DNA of 64,000 nt from Candidatus Rokuibacteriota bacterium (GTDB lineage Bacteria; Methylomirabilota; Methylomirabilia; Rokubacteriales; CSP1-6): contig JBIOXS010000189.1 in the NCBI GenBank assembly GCA_044869815.1, positions 5,341 to 69,340 of the forward strand, written 5' to 3'. Made by a program: the position numbers and the translations under genes. Positions 29,047 through 35,567 of this stretch are shown here, piece after piece. The notes below the pieces were generated by a model. It was given only the letters and a program-made list of their open reading frames with translations. It searched no databases and was not told where the DNA came from. Numbering within the stretch: position 1 is the first letter of the stretch; every line of letters starts with the position of its first letter.

Positions 29047-29349
29047 ATGACGAACATCCCCATCCAGGTCTACGGCATCAATCTCCTCGTCAAGATGATG
29101 GCCGAAGCGCCTGCCGACATCCGGGTGAACTGTCCGAAGGGCTCGCCGATCCGGTACGGCGCGGTGATGGCCCGGGGCGATGGGTTCGACGAAGGCGCCA
29201 ATGCCTTTCGCGAGATGCCGGAGCTGAAAACGGTGGTCGCGTTCGAGGAGAGCGCGGAGGAGGTCGAGGGACACTACTTCTACATCGCCCTCGAGGAGTA
29301 CCGCGTGATCCGGCTCGACTCCGTCATCCTGTCCTTCCCGCACGAGTAG
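29047..29349 (+). CDS. Hypothetical 100-aa protein with possible GroES/Cpn10-like pattern
   Basis: In the frame of ORF 28867..29349, ATG 29047. Pattern IQVYGINLLVK...YGAVMARGDG...YFYIALEEYRVIRLDSVI loosely parallels GroES (RVIVK...GEVLAVGNG...VLIMSESDILAIV). Confidence 0.55.
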   Translation: MTNIPIQVYGINLLVKMMAEAPADIRVNCPKGSPIRYGAVMARGDGFDEGANAFREMPELKTVVAFEESAEEVEGHYFYIALEEYRVIRLDSVILSFPHE

Positions 29350-29372: not shown

Positions 29373-30593
29373 GTGTCCGCGCTGAAATCCGCGCTCGCCC
29401 GCGTCGATCCCGATGAGCTGATCGCGCTCACGCGCGACCTCATCCGCATTCCGAGCGTCGTCCGGCCCGGCGACCCGACGGCGACGGAGGCGGCGGTGGC
29501 CGCGCACGTCGAGCAGTGGTGTCGCCAGGAAGGGTTCGACGTCGAGGTACAGCCCGTCGCGCCGGGGCGGCCCAACGTCCTGGCCGTCCTCGCCGGGCGG
29601 GGGCCGGGACCGACGCTGCTGCTGGAGGGCCACACCGACGTCGTGACCGAGGGCGACCCGGGGCAGTGGAGCCATCCGCCGTTCGGTGCCGACGTGATCG
29701 ACGGTCGGATCTACGGCCGCGGCGCCGCCGACATGAAGAGCGGGCTCGCCGCCGCCATGCTCGCCGCCGCCGCCCTCAAGCGCAGCGGCGCGCGCTTCCG
29801 CGGCCGGCTGGTGGTGGGCGCGCTGGTCGACGAGGAAGCCGACATGCTCGGCGTGAAGCACCTGGTCCGGACCCCGCTCGGTCGGGAGCTGACGGCGGCC
29901 ATCATCTGCGAGCCGGAGCAGAACGAGCTCTGCCTCGAGCAGCGCGGCGTGCTGTGGGCGCGTGTCACCGCCCGCGGCCGCATGGCTCACGGGGCCATGC
30001 CGGAGGCCGGCGTGAATCCGATCGTGGCGCTGTCCGCGCTGGTCCGGGAGGCGCCGCGGCTCGAGCGCCGTCTGCGGCTCCTGTGCGCGCGCAGCCGCTA
30101 TCTGCGCCCGCCCACGGTGACACCGACGGTCATGGCGGCGCCCGTGAAAGGCGTGCCGCAGTCGAACGTGATTCCCGCGCTCGCTCAGGCCACGCTCGAC
30201 GTGCGGCTCACGCCGGGCCCCGACGAGGATGCCGTCGCCAAGGAGATCGACGAGGCCTGCCGCCGTGCGGCCGACGCCTGCCCGGGCGCGACAGTGCAGT
30301 GGGAGCCGATCAACGGCTTCCGGATGGCCACCCAGGTCGAGCGGACGGAGCCGCTCGTGCGTGCCATGGCGCGCGCCGTGCGACGGGCCACCGGCAACCC
30401 GCCGCGGTATGGCGGCGTGCCCGGCTCGACCGACGGGACGATCCTCCGGATGGAGCTCGGAATCCCGATCGTCACCTGCGGTCCGGGCAATCGCCTGATT
30501 CCGCATCAGGTCGACGAGCACGTCGAGGTGGGCCAGCTCATCGACGCCGCCCGCATCTACGTCGCCACTGCGCTCGCCTATCTCGCCTCGTGA
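29373..30593 (+). CDS. M20 family metallopeptidase (ArgE/DapE/acetylornithine deacetylase-like)
   Basis: ORF 29373..30593 with a GTG start. LLLEGHTDVV, GRGAADMKSG and VDEE metal-ligand motifs. Confidence 0.85.
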   Translation: MSALKSALARVDPDELIALTRDLIRIPSVVRPGDPTATEAAVAAHVEQWCRQEGFDVEVQPVAPGRPNVLAVLAGRGPGPTLLLEGHTDVVTEGDPGQWSHPPFGADVIDGRIYGRGAADMKSGLAAAMLAAAALKRSGARFRGRLVVGALVDEEADMLGVKHLVRTPLGRELTAAIICEPEQNELCLEQRGVLWARVTARGRMAHGAMPEAGVNPIVALSALVREAPRLERRLRLLCARSRYLRPPTVTPTVMAAPVKGVPQSNVIPALAQATLDVRLTPGPDEDAVAKEIDEACRRAADACPGATVQWEPINGFRMATQVERTEPLVRAMARAVRRATGNPPRYGGVPGSTDGTILRMELGIPIVTCGPGNRLIPHQVDEHVEVGQLIDAARIYVATALAYLAS

Positions 30594-31813
30594 GCGAGCC
30601 GGCGCCGCGGCTGCGTCGCGTCGAGGTCTTTCCGGTCGAGCACGAGGGCGAGCGGTTCCTGGCGCTGCGTGATCCCGCCGGGTACACGGAGTCGTTGGTC
30701 ATGGTTCCCGTCGAGCTGCTGGAGGTCGTCTCGCTGTTCGACGGCGAGCACGACATGGCCGAGATCCAGGCCGCCGTCATGCGGCGTCGCGGCGAGCTGA
30801 TCGACTCCGCCCATATCCGTGAGCTGGCCGCCGCGCTCGATGCCCACGGCTTCCTCGAGGGCGCGGCGTTCGAGGCGCGGCGCTCGCGCATCGACGGCGA
30901 GTTCCTCGACCTCGCGCGCCGGCCGGCCTCGCACGCCGGCGGCGCCTATCCCGACGACCCCGCCGCGCTGCGCGCCATGATGGACGGCTTCTTCGAACCG
31001 CCATCCGGCCCCGGCGCCGTTGGCACCGACGGCGCGGGCCCCAGGGTGACGGCGCTCGTCGCGCCGCACATCGACTACCACCGCGGTGGGCCCGCCTACG
31101 CGTGGGGCTACCGGGACCTCGCCGAACGCTGCGACGCCGACCTGTTCGTGATCTTCGGGACCTGTCACGCCGGGATGGCCGATGCGTTCGCGCTCACCCG
31201 CAAGGACTACGACACGCCGCTCGGCGCGGCCGCCGTCGATCGCGACTTCGTGGAGTCGCTGGCGGCGCGCTCCGGGCAGGACTGCTTCGCCTCCGAGCTC
31301 GCCCACCGCGCGGAGCACTCCATCGAGTTCCAGGCGGTGTTCCTGCGCTATCTCTTCGCGGGACGGCGCGACATCACGGTGGTGCCGATCCTCACCTCCT
31401 TCGCGCACGAGGCGCTCGTGCAGGGCAAGCGGCCCGAAGACGATTCCCGGGTGGCGCGCTTCGTCGAGGCGCTCGGGGAGACCGCGGCCACCTGCGGCCG
31501 GCGGGTGGCCTTCGTGGCCGGCGCCGATCTCGCCCACGTCGGTCCGCGCTTCGGCGACCCGGACCCGATCTCGGCGGACGCGCTCGCGCGGCTCGGCGCC
31601 GACGACCGGGTCACGCTGAAGGCCGTCGAAGCCGGTGACGCCGACGCGTTCTTCGACGACGCCGTCCGCGACGGCGATCGACGTCGCATCTGCGGCCTCT
31701 CGCCGATCTGGACGCTGCTGCGGGCTCACGGCCAGCGCGCCGGTGTGCTGCGCCACTACGCTCAGTGGCCCGACCCGCAGGCGGTGGTCACCTTCGCGAG
31801 CGTGGTGTTCTGA
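30590..31813 (+). CDS. Memo / AmmeMemoRadiSam system protein B-like protein with an N-terminal extension of about 130 aa (possible PqqD/RRE-like domain)
   Basis: In the frame of ORF 29516..31813, GTG 30590 (GTGA overlap with the M20 gene). Memo-family core motifs VAPHIDYHRGG, FGTCH and AGADLAHVGPRFGD. 407 aa against about 270 for typical AmrB. Confidence 0.75.
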   Translation: MSEPAPRLRRVEVFPVEHEGERFLALRDPAGYTESLVMVPVELLEVVSLFDGEHDMAEIQAAVMRRRGELIDSAHIRELAAALDAHGFLEGAAFEARRSRIDGEFLDLARRPASHAGGAYPDDPAALRAMMDGFFEPPSGPGAVGTDGAGPRVTALVAPHIDYHRGGPAYAWGYRDLAERCDADLFVIFGTCHAGMADAFALTRKDYDTPLGAAAVDRDFVESLAARSGQDCFASELAHRAEHSIEFQAVFLRYLFAGRRDITVVPILTSFAHEALVQGKRPEDDSRVARFVEALGETAATCGRRVAFVAGADLAHVGPRFGDPDPISADALARLGADDRVTLKAVEAGDADAFFDDAVRDGDRRRICGLSPIWTLLRAHGQRAGVLRHYAQWPDPQAVVTFASVVF

Positions 31814-32268
31814 TGGCAACGCCCCCCGCCGACTGGAAGCTGCCCGACCTGCGCGTCGACGTCGACGGCGAATGGTTCGACGACGACGTCCAGGTGACGC
31901 ATCCCGGGATCCTGGCGAACCTCCGCGGCAACCTCCGCAAGGACGCCCAGGGATATTTCATCCAGACACGCGTCCGGATCCCCGTGCGCGTGGACGACGT
32001 GCCGTGGCTGGTGGCACGGCTCGAGCGCCGGGGCGACCGCCTTCACGTGCTTCTGAACGACGGCAGCGAGGAGAGGATCGATCCCGCGACGTTCCGGGTG
32101 GGCGCCGGTGACGTGCCGTACTGCGCGGTGAAGGCGGGCGCCTTCGAGGCTCGGCTCTCGCGCGCCGCCACCTTCCAGCTCTGGGCGCTCGCCGAGTACG
32201 ACGAGGCATCGGGGCGCGGCGCGCTCCGTCTCGGCGGGCGCGAGTACCCGCTCGCCCGCGCCTCCTGA
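31813..32268 (+). CDS. DUF1285 domain protein
   Basis: In the frame of ORF 31765..32268, ATG 31813 overlaps the upstream TGA by 1 nt. The pattern DGEWFDDDVQVTHPGILANLRGNLRKD...YFIQ matches my recollection of DUF1285. Confidence 0.6.
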   Translation: MATPPADWKLPDLRVDVDGEWFDDDVQVTHPGILANLRGNLRKDAQGYFIQTRVRIPVRVDDVPWLVARLERRGDRLHVLLNDGSEERIDPATFRVGAGDVPYCAVKAGAFEARLSRAATFQLWALAEYDEASGRGALRLGGREYPLARAS

Positions 32269-32292: not shown

Positions 32293-33960
32293 ATGCAGGT
32301 CGCCGCGCTGTTGATGCGCTCGCTCCGCGCCGCCGGGGTCGACTATCTCTTCGGCAATCCCGGCACGACGGAGCTGCCGTTCCTCGACGCGCTCGACGGC
32401 TCCGGCATCGACTACATCGTGGCGCTGCAGGAGGCGACGGCGGTGGCCGCCGCCGACGGCTACGCCCAGGCGAGCGGCCGGCTCGGCGTGGTCAACCTTC
32501 ACGTGGCGCCCGGCGTCGGCAACGGTCTCTCCATCCTCCACAATGCGAGCCGCGCGCGCTCGCCGCTGCTCGTCACGGCCGGGCAGCAGGACACGCGACT
32601 GCTGCTCGGCGACCCGATCCTGGCCGCCGATCTGGTCCAGCTGACCGAGCAGTTCACGAAGTGGTCGCACGAGATCCGCTCCGCCGCCGAGGCGCCGGCC
32701 GCGCTCCGCCGCGCGATCGAGCTCGCGCTGACACCGCCGACGGGGCCGGTGTTCCTCGCGCTTCCGATGGATCTCATGGCCGAGGCGGCCGATCCGGTCG
32801 CCGCGCCGGCGTCCGCGGTATGCGCGCGTCCCGAGCCGCCGCCCGATGCGATCGCCGAGGCGGCGACGCTGCTGGCGGCCGCGAGGTCGCCGGTCATCGT
32901 GGTCGGCGACGGCGTGGGGCGCTCCGGGGCTCGCGCCGAGCTCACGGCGCTGGCCGAGCTTCTCGGCGCGGCCGTGTACGGCGAGCCGATCCAGCGGCGC
33001 GCGAGCTTTCCCGCCGACCACCCGCTGTGGCGCGGCGGGCTGTTTCCGGCCGCGGCCAGCGTCCGCAAGTCGCTCGAGCGTGCCGACTGCGTCCTGATCG
33101 TCGGCGCGAGCGTCTTCACGTGGCTCTTTCACACGCCGGGACCACCGCTTCGGCCGGGCCTGCCGGTCGTGCAGCTCGACGACGACCCGCGCGAAGTGGG
33201 CAAGACGTATCCCGTCCGCCTCGGGATCGTCGCCGACGTCCGCGCCGCGCTCCGTGCGCTGCATGCGGTCCTGGACGCGCGGCTCGGCCCCGCCGAGCGC
33301 GCGGCGGCGGCCGAACGCGCCGCGGCGCTGGGCCGCGCGCGCCAGGAGTACGTCAGACGGCTGGCGGCCGACGCCGAGGCGGCCGCCGGGCGCACGCCGA
33401 TCGCGCCGGCGTTTGTCATGCACACCCTTGGCCGGCTGCTGCCGGCCGATGCCGTCGTCGTCGACGAGTCGGCCTCGTCACTGCCGCACGTCCTTCGTCA
33501 TCTGCCATTCGGGCCGCGGGCGGAGTTCTTCGGCAGCAAGACGGGCACGCTCGGCTGGGCCATGGGCGCCGCCGTGGGCGTGCAGCTCGCCTGGCCCGAG
33601 CGCGCCGTGGTGGCGACGCTCGGCGACGGATCGGTGATGTACGCACCGCAGGCGCTGTGGACGGCGGCGCGGTACCGCCTGCCCATCACCTACGTCGTCC
33701 TCAACAACACCTCGTACGCGATCTTGAAAGCGGGAATGGTGACGCTCGGGTTGCCGTCGGCCAAGCGCGGGATCTATCCCGGCATGGACCTGGTGGACCC
33801 GGAGATCGACTATCTCGCGCTCGCCCGCGCCATGGGCGTGCGGGCCGCGCGCGTGGAGAAACCGGCGGACCTGCGCGAGACGCTCGCCGAGTGTCTCGCG
33901 CATCGCGGGCCCGCGCTGGTGGACGTCGCCATCGAGCGCTCGTTCGAGCCGATGCTGTGA
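32293..33960 (+). CDS. Thiamine diphosphate-dependent enzyme, benzoylformate decarboxylase-like
   Basis: ORF 32293..33960. The N-terminus [19 protein letters not shown]...[20 protein letters not shown] closely parallels MdlC (DTVFGNPGSNELPFLKDF...[20 protein letters not shown]). GDGS...NN ThDP motif near the C-terminus. Confidence 0.75.
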   Translation: [555 protein letters not shown]

Positions 33961-35567
33961 AGCGCACGGGCGGGGAATGGGTCGTGGACGCGCTCACGCG
34001 CGAGGGCGTCCGTCACGTCTTCGGCATCCCCGGCGTGCACAATCTCGCCGTCTACGACGCGCTCCTGCGGCAGTCCGCCATCCGCCACGTCCTGGCCCGC
34101 CACGAGCAAGGCGCCGCTTTCATGGCGGACGGCTATGCCCGCGCGTCCGGCGCGCCCGGGGTGGTCATCGTCACCAGCGGGCCGGCGGCGACGAACACCA
34201 TCACGCCGCTGGCGGAGGCCTATTCGGGCTCGATCCCCGTGGTGGTGATCATGTCGGACATCGCCTCGACGCTCGTCGGCCGCGACCTGGGCGCGCTGCA
34301 CGAGGTGCCGAACCAGATCGATTGCTTCCGGCCCGTCACCCGCTGGGCGGAGGCGCTGACCGACGCCGCCGCCATCCCGACGACGATCGCCGGCGCGTTC
34401 GAGCTGCTGCGGACCGGCCGGCCCGGGCCGATGGCCGTCTCGATTCCGAACGATCTGCTCGGCGCCCAGGTCGAGGCGGCCACGCCGCCGCGCTCGGGCG
34501 CGGGCCGTCCGCCGTGTCACGTCGCCGACATCGAGGCCGCGGCGAGCGTGCTCGCGGCCGCCGCGCGGCCGCTCATCATCGCCGGCGGCGGTGTCGTCGC
34601 CGCCGGAGCTGAGACGGAGCTGACGGCGCTCGCGCGGCGGTTGCAGGCGCCGGTCGTCGCCACCGTTTCCGGGCGCGGCGCCATCTCCGAGCGCGATCCG
34701 CTCTTTCACAGCGTGCTGCCCGACCGCCGCGCCACCGCGGGCGCGCTGGCCGCCGCCGACGTCGTGCTGGCCGTCGGCACCAAGCTCGGCCACCGCTCAC
34801 TGGAGAAGCTCGGCACGGGCCTGACGGCCGGGCAGGCGCTCATCCATCTCGATCTGGATCCGGGCGTGATCGGGCGGCACTCCAAGGCGCGCCTGGCCCT
34901 CGTCGGCGATGCGCGTCACGGCCTGGCCGGTCTGGTGGCCGCGCTCGGTCCCGGCGAGGGCCAGACGCGCTGGGACCGCGCGCGACTGGCGTCCTTGCGC
35001 GCCGATGCCGGACCGCGTTTCACGCGCGAGGTCGCCGACGCCGTCGCCACGCTGCGGCGCGCGCTGCCAGACGACACGATCGTCGTGAACGACCAGACGG
35101 GCTTGACCTACTGGATGGAGCACAAGTTCCCGGTCCTGGCGCCGCGGACGTTCTTGTATCCCACGGGCTCGGCGGTTCTCGGCTACGCCGTCCCGGCGGC
35201 CATCGGCGCCAAGCTCGCTCGTCCCGATCGGCCCGTCGTCGCCGTCGCCGGAGACGGCGGGTTCATGTTCTCGGTGGCGGAGCTCGCGACGGCGGTGAAG
35301 TACCGGCTGCCGATCGTCTTCATCGTCGTCAACGACGACCGGTTCGGCGCCATCAAGTACCTGCAAGAGAAGTTCTACGGCGGCCGGTGGGGGGAGACGG
35401 ACCTGACGAATCCCGATTTCGTGGCCCTCGCGCACGCCTTCGGCGCCGGCGGCGAGCGCCTGGCCGCGCTGGATGCGCTGCCCGAGGCCGTCGCGCGCGC
35501 GCTGGCGGCCGATGGCCCGAGCCTGCTCGAGCTCAGGCTGAGTCTCGAGCCTCCGTGGGAGTTCTAG
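33957..35567 (+). CDS. Thiamine diphosphate-dependent enzyme, acetolactate synthase large-subunit-like
   Basis: In the frame of ORF 32661..35567, GTG 33957 (GTGA overlap). VRHVFGIPGVHNLAVYDAL, HEQGAAFMADGYARASG and GDGGFMFS...VVNDD motifs. Confidence 0.8.
   Translation: MKRTGGEWVVDALTREGVRHVFGIPGVHNLAVYDALLRQSAIRHVLARHEQGAAFMADGYARASGAPGVVIVTSGPAATNTITPLAEAYSGSIPVVVIMSDIASTLVGRDLGALHEVPNQIDCFRPVTRWAEALTDAAAIPTTIAGAFELLRTGRPGPMAVSIPNDLLGAQVEAATPPRSGAGRPPCHVADIEAAASVLAAAARPLIIAGGGVVAAGAETELTALARRLQAPVVATVSGRGAISERDPLFHSVLPDRRATAGALAAADVVLAVGTKLGHRSLEKLGTGLTAGQALIHLDLDPGVIGRHSKARLALVGDARHGLAGLVAALGPGEGQTRWDRARLASLRADAGPRFTREVADAVATLRRALPDDTIVVNDQTGLTYWMEHKFPVLAPRTFLYPTGSAVLGYAVPAAIGAKLARPDRPVVAVAGDGGFMFSVAELATAVKYRLPIVFIVVNDDRFGAIKYLQEKFYGGRWGETDLTNPDFVALAHAFGAGGERLAALDALPEAVARALAADGPSLLELRLSLEPPWEF

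What the first reader, a model, noticed from the sequence alone, without database searches (positions are those of the whole stretch)
30590..31813. Memo/AmrB-like enzyme with an N-terminal extension that resembles a PqqD-type RiPP recognition element
The C-terminal 270 aa or so carry Memo/AmmeMemoRadiSam-B motifs (APHIDYHRGG, FGTCH, GADLAHVGPRFGD). The protein is 407 aa in total.

The extra N-terminal region reads RFLALRDPAGYTESLVMVPVELLEVVSLFDGEHDMAEIQAAVMRRRGELIDSAHIRELAAALDAHGFLEG. It has the beta-beta-beta plus three-helix layout and the xLxDGxxxxxEI...FLxxLxxxGxL spacing of PqqD/RRE peptide-binding domains.

An RRE fused to a Memo-fold (LigB-like) enzyme would imply a peptide substrate. 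I am not aware that this fusion has been described.

No AMMECR1 (AmrA) or AmrS radical-SAM partner lies nearby. The radical SAM gene at 1-1049 is 29 kb away and of a different type.
Basis: inference. Interest (0 to 1): 0.6.

Follow-up and report, generated by a model that had tools for sequence, protein, structure and literature searches.

The report
Peptide-docking domain fused to Memo
This gene encodes a Memo-type metal enzyme with a conserved front domain shaped like the peptide-docking module of peptide-modifying enzymes; the fusion is real and widespread but was catalogued in 2025, and its target is still unknown.

Summary
Window 30590-31813 (+) encodes a 407-aa protein: a Memo domain at residues 111-407 and a conserved 110-aa N-terminal domain.

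The RRE reading holds at fold and profile level:
- The best PDB fold match is the heterocyclase TruD.
- hhalign links it to PqqD (PF05402) at 91% probability.
- Pfam and NCBIfam HMMs find nothing in this domain.

The fusion is not new. The 2025 RRE-Finder update (PMC12710340) lists Memo fusions and has a model for them, RREFam044 "Memo_RRE". This scan has also noted the same fusion at least 45 times on other DNA.

Added here:
- The gene is single-copy and nearly universal in Rokubacteria and in a Nitrospinota/Tectomicrobia phylum.
- It is a paralogue distinct from the AmrB of the AmmeMemoRadiSam system. Relatives that have AmrS carry a second, canonical Memo beside it.
- In Rokubacteria it sits in a fixed operon: Cpn10-fold 100-aa protein, M20 peptidase, RRE-Memo, DUF1285-like protein.
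- No neighbour is conserved across phyla, and there is no precursor-like gene.

A classic RiPP cluster is therefore unlikely. The substrate is unknown.

The parts
30590..31813 (+). RRE-Memo fusion gene, 407 aa, GTG start, TGA stop at 31811-31813
   Evidence: Translation. Start overlaps the upstream stop. Full-length orthologues in 80 + 33 loci.
30590..30919 (+). N-terminal RRE-like (PqqD-like winged-helix) domain plus linker helix, residues 1-110
   Evidence: [quoted passage not shown] Foldseek top hit is TruD. hhalign to PF05402 domains 90.9%. No Pfam or NCBIfam HMM hit.
30920..31810 (+). Memo (LigB-like fold) domain, residues 111-407. H160, H193, D313, H316 and C368 align with MEMO1 H49, H81, D189, H192 and C244.
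   Evidence: Pfam and NCBIfam. Alignment to MEMO1 chains 7kq8 and 3bcz. These residues are >=97% conserved in 72 orthologues.
29047..29349 (+). First gene of the operon: a 100-aa Cpn10/GroES-fold protein of an orphan family, far more conserved than RRE-Memo
   Evidence: 71-100% identity across 61 loci. Mean column identity 86%. No Pfam hit. AF2 plus Foldseek match to Cpn10 1p3h, E 2.4e-5, TM 0.66. Single copy beside RRE-Memo in 57 of 61 relatives.
29373..30593 (+). M20 family metallopeptidase/deacylase, translationally coupled to RRE-Memo
   Evidence: Pfam Peptidase_M20 plus M20_dimer. Found directly upstream of RRE-Memo in most Rokubacteria-type loci.
31813..32268 (+). DUF1285_N-like 151-aa protein whose start overlaps the Memo stop by 1 nt
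   Evidence: Weak Pfam hit PF06938, E 8.9e-4, below the cut-off. Found directly downstream in nearly all Rokubacteria-type loci.
32293..35567 (+). Two thiamine-diphosphate enzymes (32293-33960 and 33957-35567) at the tail of the co-directional block. They are variable among relatives.
   Evidence: Pfam TPP_enzyme_N/M/C. Present, displaced or missing in different loci.

Best explanation
The gene encodes a two-domain protein. The C-terminal Memo domain keeps the His/His/Asp/His/Cys site that binds metal in human MEMO1, so it is probably an active metal-dependent enzyme (inferred). The N-terminal 110 residues form a winged-helix domain of the RRE/PqqD type (shown at model and profile level). In known peptide-modifying enzymes this domain holds an extended peptide segment against its third strand and presents the neighbouring residues to the fused catalytic domain. 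I therefore read the protein as a Memo enzyme that recruits a peptide or an exposed protein segment through its own docking domain (inferred, not shown).

It belongs to the catalogued but uncharacterised 'Memo_RRE' fusion family. It is a paralogue separate from the AmrB protein of the AmmeMemoRadiSam three-gene system (shown by phyletic pattern and gene order in relatives). It behaves like a housekeeping gene, not like a natural-product gene: it is single-copy, nearly universal in two phyla, and has no shared neighbours across phyla.

In Rokubacteria it is co-transcribed with an ultra-conserved Cpn10-fold protein, an M20 peptidase and a DUF1285-like protein. These are the best local candidates for partner or substrate. 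They are absent from other lineages that carry the fusion.
For: - **Domain architecture:**
- **RRE-like fold and remote homology:**. There is also a weak hmmsearch hit to PaaA residues 47-95 (E 0.06).
- **Metal-site residues conserved:**
- **Size of the family:** 1986 clusters at 50% identity match the N-terminal profile. Nearly all of the 150 listed are Memo fusions of about 400-440 aa or fragments of them.
- **Published catalogue entry:**
- **Single copy and wide spread:** 55 of 61 relatives (26 of 27 high-quality genomes), 47 of 51 genomes of the Nitrospinota/Tectomicrobia phylum, and 47 of 151 genomes of the phylum of the Brocadiales-labelled genome G003.
- **Separate from AmrB:** AmrS passes its cut-off in only 12 of 61 relatives and AMMECR1 is in 17 of 61. 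All five AmrS-carrying relatives that were checked have a second, better-scoring Memo (175-206 bits) beside AmrS.
- **Operon conservation in Rokubacteria:**
Against: - Nothing shows that the domain binds a peptide.
- No Foldseek match reaches E <= 0.001, and TM-scores are only about 0.5.
- The hhalign match covers only the three helices (residues 41-90), not the strands.
- The Pfam PqqD model and all NCBIfam models miss the domain.
- I could not run RRE-Finder, so membership of RREFam044 is inferred from architecture alone.
- No candidate substrate is conserved wherever the fusion occurs.
- The invariant PxLR and LRDP motifs are not general RRE features. They may serve a different purpose, such as contact with the Memo domain.
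Confidence: 0.6

Rival explanations
1. This is a classic RiPP maturase. A small precursor peptide encoded in or near the operon is bound by the RRE and modified by the Memo domain, with the M20 peptidase trimming it.
For: - The domain has an RRE-like fold.
- A peptidase gene is translationally coupled upstream.
- The RRE-Finder authors file such fusions under RiPP discovery.
Against: - Gene junctions in the window leave no room for a small ORF: the gaps are 23 and 24 nt, or the genes overlap.
- The only conserved small gene is a folded 100-aa Cpn10-like protein that is conserved along its whole length. It does not have the conserved-leader/variable-core look of a precursor.
- The gene is single-copy and near-universal in whole phyla. 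RiPP clusters are usually patchy.
- No neighbour is shared among 33 loci from other phyla.
Confidence: 0.07
2. The N-terminal domain shares the RRE fold but no longer docks a free peptide. It acts as a lid, as a dimerisation or regulatory module, or as a docking site for a folded partner protein such as the Cpn10-like protein.
For: - The family-specific invariant motifs (P6-x-L8-R9, R27-D28-P29) and a conserved linker helix suggest fixed intramolecular contacts.
- No substrate gene travels with the fusion.
- Fold matches also include non-RiPP winged helices such as the PKMT C-terminal domain.
Against: - The profile similarity is specifically to PqqD-family domains.
- The best structural match is a RiPP heterocyclase.
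- Human MEMO1 itself binds a peptide in its active-site cleft (my knowledge of the 3bcz paper, not tested here), so peptide chemistry is plausible for this fold.
Confidence: 0.25
3. It is the AmrB component of the AmmeMemoRadiSam system, as the database names say, and works with the unlinked AmrS radical SAM enzyme of this genome.
For: - TIGR04336 scores 112.9 bits against a cut-off of 26.
- This genome has a strong AmrS (640 bits) and no other Memo gene was found.
- All five distant genomes that carry the fusion also have an AmrS-type gene.
Against: - AmrS is on another contig among unrelated genes.
- RRE-Memo is in 55 of 61 relatives, but AmrS passes its cut-off in only 12 and AMMECR1 is in 17.
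- Relatives with AmrS have their own canonical Memo next to it, next to AMMECR1 too in three of the five checked.
- The genome is only 80% complete, so a canonical AmrB may simply be missing from the assembly.
Confidence: 0.08

Closest known systems
'Memo_RRE' fusions of the updated RRE-Finder (RREFam044; Bregman et al., mSystems 2025, PMC12710340)
   Same: [quoted passage not shown] In both cases the fusion was found by structure prediction, not by sequence HMMs, and neither has a known function.
   Different: I could not score this protein with RREFam044. The paper gives no substrate, no phyletic pattern and no operon context. The Rokubacteria operon and the separation from AmrB are described only here.
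PqqD and PqqD-family RiPP recognition elements (Pfam PF05402; e.g. PDB 5SXY)
   Same: Same order of secondary-structure elements. The profile-profile match runs over the three helices and includes the 'xDG..s..eI' turn.
   Different: The PF05402 HMM does not detect it. It is fused rather than free-standing, carries a fourth helix and has family-specific invariant motifs. There is no precursor peptide or radical SAM partner at the locus.
AmmeMemoRadiSam system protein B (AmrB, TIGR04336) and human MEMO1 (PDB 3bcz, 7kq8)
   Same: Same catalytic-domain fold and the same conserved His/His/Asp/His/Cys site.
   Different: AmrB and MEMO1 are about 270-300 aa and lack the N-terminal domain. AmrB is encoded beside AmrS and AMMECR1. 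This protein is not, and relatives keep a separate canonical AmrB.
N-terminal RRE domains of the cyanobactin heterocyclases TruD/LynD/PatD (PDB 4bs9)
   Same: TruD (4bs9) is the best structural match to the modelled domain. Both have an RRE fused at the N-terminus of the catalytic domain.
   Different: Similarity is modest (E 0.014, TMq 0.49, 14% identity). The catalytic domain (YcaO) is unrelated, and cyanobactin clusters encode a clear precursor.

Membership tests
RiPP recognition element (RRE), as defined by Bregman et al. 2025 | N-to-C order beta-beta-beta then alpha-alpha-alpha, forming a winged helix-turn-helix | tested here: met
   AF2 model, pLDDT 90.7: E12-18, E21-27, E36-40, H41-48, H56-67, H73-85.
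RiPP recognition element (RRE), as defined by Bregman et al. 2025 | Detectable similarity to known RRE structures or profiles | tested here: met
   Foldseek top hit is TruD 4bs9 (E 0.014, probability 1.0), with ThcOx, MibB and TglHI also listed. hhalign to PF05402 domains gives 90.9% and score 37.9 against at most 15.7 for controls. The Pfam and NCBIfam HMMs are negative.
RiPP recognition element (RRE), as defined by Bregman et al. 2025 | [quoted passage not shown] | not testable with these tools
   No candidate precursor was found. Binding needs an experiment or a complex prediction.
RRE-Finder RREFam044 'Memo_RRE' | Score of at least 20 bits on the RREFam044 HMM | not testable with these tools
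   The HMM is not available here. The architecture matches the paper's description.
Memo family (Pfam PF01875) | Pfam score above the gathering cut-off, and the MEMO1 metal-site residues present | tested here: met
   140.2 bits against a cut-off of 27. H160, H193, D313, H316 and C368 align to MEMO1 H49, H81, D189, H192 and C244 and are >=97% conserved.
AmmeMemoRadiSam system protein B (TIGR04336) | HMM score above the cut-off | tested here: met
   112.9 bits against a cut-off of 26.
AmmeMemoRadiSam system protein B (TIGR04336) | Part of a three-gene system with the AmrS radical SAM enzyme and an AMMECR1 homologue (co-located and co-occurring) | tested here: not met
   AmrS is on another contig and no AMMECR1 was found. 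Among 61 relatives the counts are 55 (RRE-Memo), 12 (AmrS) and 17 (AMMECR1). In all five AmrS-carrying relatives checked, a second Memo gene fills the AmrB slot.
RiPP biosynthetic gene cluster | A precursor peptide gene conserved next to the modifying enzyme | tested here: not met
   No small ORF fits inside the operon. The only conserved small gene is a folded Cpn10-like protein. No neighbour is shared across 33 loci from other phyla.

The most novel reading that the evidence does not exclude
RRE-Memo is a housekeeping protein-modifying enzyme. In Rokubacteria its target would be the ultra-conserved Cpn10-fold protein that heads the operon. The RRE would grip that protein's invariant flexible loop (V-x-C-P-K-G-S-P-I-R-Y-G, at the position of the GroES mobile loop) and the Memo metal site would modify a residue in it. 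The M20 enzyme would act before or after that step. This would give the first substrate and the first chemistry for any bacterial Memo protein.
Probability: 0.08. Interest if true: 0.65.

Novelty: new member of a known kind. Interest (0 to 1): 0.3.

Why it matters
Memo proteins occur from bacteria to humans, where MEMO1 is linked to cell motility and to metal and redox biology. No bacterial Memo has a known reaction. A built-in peptide-docking domain is a strong hint that this branch acts on a peptide or protein.

The gene is single-copy and nearly universal in several uncultivated phyla, so the reaction is probably a basic cellular one. The fixed Rokubacteria operon narrows the search for a substrate to a few proteins that can be tested in E. 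coli.

The fusion itself is already in the literature and has been seen many times in this scan. The value here is context and a correction to annotation: this protein should not be called 'AmmeMemoRadiSam system protein B'.

Tried and rejected
- **Sequence HMMs on the N-terminal domain.** Pfam and NCBIfam on the 123-aa N-terminus alone at E <= 10 gave nothing. phmmer against PDB gave only noise.
- **PF05402 over genomes.** The search of 61 relatives' genomes listed many PqqD genes. I did not check whether any of those places falls in a Memo gene.
- **Profile hmmsearch against PDB.** The top of the list was EF-hand noise (troponin C, calmodulin) and gyrase A. The PaaA hit was only E 0.06, so I treat it as a hint.
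- **My own error.** In some searches I translated the small upstream gene from 29052 instead of 29047, which is out of frame. That 'no Pfam hit' and those identity values are void. repeat the work in frame.
- **Cpn10-like protein as a universal partner.** Rejected: four of five distant genomes with RRE-Memo lack it, and the fifth has it unlinked.
In the 33 loci from other phyla I found no homologue of the window's M20 among the flanking genes. The ten neighbours I annotated with Pfam are lineage-specific: MFS transporter, ornithine cyclodeaminase/mu-crystallin, Amidohydro_2, DUF4175, TRAM methyltransferase, sigma-54 activator and a nickel-insertion protein. Most flanking ORFs were not annotated.
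- **P0145 (986 aa).** It looked like the domain fused to something else. It holds the RRE plus the first residues of Memo and then an unrelated TPR protein, so it is probably a chimeric assembly.
- **Full-length model.** Not made; the second structure job went to the Cpn10-like protein.
Full report
**The gene**

Window 30590-31813 (+) translates without a stop to 407 aa. Its GTG start overlaps the stop codon of the upstream gene (GTGA). Its own stop overlaps the ATG of the next gene by one base.

Pfam places a Memo domain at residues 113-393 (E 9.8e-41). NCBIfam TIGR04336 (AmmeMemoRadiSam system protein B) covers 111-407 at 112.9 bits.

Aligned to human MEMO1 (PDB 7kq8, 3bcz), H160, H193, D313, H316 and C368 take the places of H49, H81, D189, H192 and C244. 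All five are at least 97% conserved in 72 orthologues. That these residues bind copper or iron in MEMO1 is my own knowledge of the literature and was not tested here.

**The N-terminal extension is real and conserved**

- The search for homologous proteins returned more than 3600 hits. The best 120 are 371-422 aa long, nearly all of them 400-422 aa, and cover 91-100% of the query.
- In 80 genomic loci the match starts at query residue 1-6 unless the contig is cut.
- A 64-sequence alignment of residues 1-112 (A1) has P6, L8, R9, R27, D28, D51, G52 and R111 invariant.
- The organism is a Rokubacteria (Methylomirabilota) MAG of 3.69 Mb, 80% complete.

**Is the extension an RRE?**

Sequence HMM libraries are silent. 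Pfam and NCBIfam find nothing in the N-terminus alone even at E <= 10.

Structure prediction and profile comparison support the reading:
- AlphaFold2 on A1 gives pLDDT 90.7 and pTM 0.80. The elements are strands 12-18, 21-27 and 36-40, helices 41-48, 56-67 and 73-85, then a fourth helix 92-107 leading into Memo. [quoted passage not shown]
- Foldseek against PDB ranks the cyanobactin heterocyclase TruD (4bs9) first (E 0.014, probability 1.0, TMq 0.49).
- ThcOx (rank 7), MibB (rank 33) and TglHI (rank 43) also appear. All are RiPP enzymes that, to my knowledge, contain RRE-type domains. The list also holds PKMT winged-helix domains and chromodomains.
- No Foldseek match reaches E <= 0.001.
- A profile of A1 against PDB sequences hits residues 47-95 of PaaA, which I recall as part of its RRE. 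The hit is only E 0.06 and sits among EF-hand noise.
- For a cleaner test I collected 28 PF05402 (PqqD) domains from relatives' genomes and ran hhalign against A1. The result was probability 90.9%, E 1.1e-6 and score 37.9 over residues 41-90, the three helices.
- One reversed and 30 column-shuffled controls scored at most 15.7.

I conclude that the domain has the RRE fold and is a remote relative of PqqD. Peptide binding itself is not shown.

**The fusion is already described**

A full-text search found Bregman et al., mSystems 2025 (PMC12710340). [quoted passage not shown] Its Table S1 lists a Foldseek-derived model, RREFam044 'Memo_RRE' (72% true positives, cut-off 20 bits). No substrate or function is given.

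After reaching this point I looked at the scan's earlier notes. At least 45 findings in other genomes describe the same fusion, and follow-up agents reached the same verdict.

**How large and how widespread the family is**

- The A1 profile matches 1986 clusters (50% identity representatives) at E <= 0.001 and 1163 at E <= 1e-10. Nearly all of the 150 listed are Memo fusions of about 400-440 aa or fragments of them.
- Among 61 genomes of the same order it occurs in 55, in 53 of them as a single match (G006 and G024 each show a second, partial or weak one), and in 26 of 27 high-quality genomes.
- It is single-copy in 47 of 51 genomes of the phylum that holds the Nitrospinota and Tectomicrobia loci.
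- It is in 47 of 151 sampled genomes of the phylum of the Brocadiales-labelled genome G003.
- It is in 4 of 151 genomes of a third phylum.
- A near-universal single-copy gene looks like a core function, not a natural-product cluster.

**It is not the AmrB of the AmmeMemoRadiSam system**

- This genome has one strong AmrS (TIGR04337, 640 bits) on contig C100. AmrS sits between an aldolase and an amidohydrolase gene. No AMMECR1 and no second Memo were found.
- Among the 61 relatives, AmrS passes its cut-off in 12 and AMMECR1 is present in 17, against 55 with RRE-Memo.
- I checked five relatives with AmrS. Each has two Memo genes: the RRE-Memo (106-143 bits on PF01875) and a second, canonical Memo (175-206 bits, full model length) directly beside AmrS. 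In three of the five this second gene is also beside AMMECR1 (one search read).
- The three-gene system thus has its own AmrB, and the RRE-Memo is a distinct paralogue. The database name 'AmmeMemoRadiSam system protein B' for this gene rests on the HMM score alone.

**Gene neighbourhood in Rokubacteria**

The block is: a 100-aa gene (29047-29349), M20 peptidase (29373-30593), RRE-Memo, a DUF1285_N-like gene (31813-32268), then two ThDP enzymes.
- M20 and the DUF1285-like gene flank RRE-Memo in most Rokubacteria-type loci.
- The 100-aa gene is present in 61 of 80 loci. That is every locus with at least 1.7 kb upstream except nine distant ones (NC10/Methylomirabilis-, Tectomicrobia- and Brocadiales-labelled, plus unclassified). 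It is 71-100% identical where RRE-Memo is only 50-85% identical.
- In six loci it lies within about 100 nt upstream of RRE-Memo with no M20 between them.
- It has no Pfam hit and belongs to only 240 clusters, none with an informative name.
- Its AlphaFold2 model (pLDDT 85.9) matches Cpn10/GroES (1p3h, E 2.4e-5, TM 0.66).
- It is single-copy and lies about 1.5 kb from RRE-Memo in the relatives where both were found (57 of 61 carry it).
- This is the only conserved small gene near the orthologues. It is a folded protein and does not look like a precursor peptide.

**Gene neighbourhood elsewhere**

- In NC10, Tectomicrobia, Brocadiales and Nitrospinota loci the neighbours are unrelated to those above and mostly to each other: peroxiredoxin, ornithine cyclodeaminase, an ELP3-like radical SAM, a TRAM methyltransferase, DUF4175 and SurA.
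- I fetched 33 more loci from three phyla. All encode the full fusion at 26-49% identity.
- All-against-all comparison of 131 flanking ORFs found no homologue of the window's M20, DUF1285-like, Cpn10-like or ThDP genes. Only lineage-limited clusters appeared: MFS transporter, OCD/mu-crystallin, Amidohydro_2 and DUF4175.
- Four of five distant genomes lack the Cpn10-like gene altogether.
- No partner gene travels with the fusion across phyla.

**Reading**

The best-supported picture is a metal-dependent Memo enzyme that uses its own RRE-type domain to hold a peptide or an exposed protein segment.
- Shown: architecture, fold, conservation, phyletic pattern, separation from AmrB, and the operon.
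- Inferred: peptide docking, catalysis, and any link to the operon partners.
- A classic RiPP pathway is unlikely.
- The rival that the domain has lost peptide binding and now serves as a lid or protein-docking module cannot be excluded.
- The most novel reading still open is that, in Rokubacteria, the Cpn10-like protein's invariant loop is the target. I give it about 8%.

**Verdict**

This is a new member of a catalogued but uncharacterised family, with modest interest.

Noticed in passing
window 29047-29349 (+): A 100-aa protein with a Cpn10/GroES fold but no Pfam hit. It belongs to an orphan family of about 240 clusters and is 71-100% identical across Rokubacteria, far more conserved than its operon neighbours. 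The stretch C29-P-K-G-S-P-I-R-Y-G38 is invariant or nearly so and sits where GroES has its mobile loop. There is no groEL beside it.
   Followed up: partly
genome G000, whole: The Pfam Cpn10 model (PF00166) finds no canonical groES in this 80%-complete genome; the best hit is 13.6 bits. This may be an assembly gap, or it may mean the Cpn10-like gene matters more than it seems.
   Followed up: no
G000 contig C100:8504-9550 (locus L083): An orphan AmrS-type radical SAM gene (TIGR04337, 640 bits) sits between a class II aldolase and an Amidohydro_2 gene, with no AMMECR1 or canonical Memo next to it. In relatives G035, G011 and G009 the three genes lie together.
   Followed up: partly
relatives G035:C64:39350-42430, G011:C245:823-3969, G009:C271:4900-7953: AmrS, AMMECR1 and canonical Memo matches all report the same long open frame of 1057-1118 aa. 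This may mean a triple fusion protein, or it may be a chance open frame in high-GC DNA.
   Followed up: no
L004, L005, L008, L026, L028-L032, L036, L038, L048 (about 500 nt between the DUF1285-like and ThDP genes): Some relatives carry an extra gene here for a membrane-anchored protein with a PCxCGC...GHxSN motif (PCYCGC-type, possibly metal-binding). The window lacks it.
   Followed up: no
L053, L055, L060, L061, L079: Contigs labelled Dormibacterota, Nitrosotalea, Deferrimicrobiaceae, Verrucomicrobiia and Limnocylindria share the exact Rokubacteria gene order (RmuC, Cpn10-like, M20, RRE-Memo, DUF1285-like, IMPase). They are probably mis-binned Rokubacteria contigs.
   Followed up: no
protein P0145 (986 aa, from the representative search): It has the RRE-like domain plus the first residues of Memo, followed by an unrelated TPR-containing sequence. 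It is probably a chimeric contig and not a second kind of fusion.
   Followed up: partly
L068:9393-10442 and L145-L151 (gene just downstream of RRE-Memo): In the Nitrospinota/Tectomicrobia phylum an ornithine cyclodeaminase/mu-crystallin gene regularly follows RRE-Memo.
   Followed up: partly
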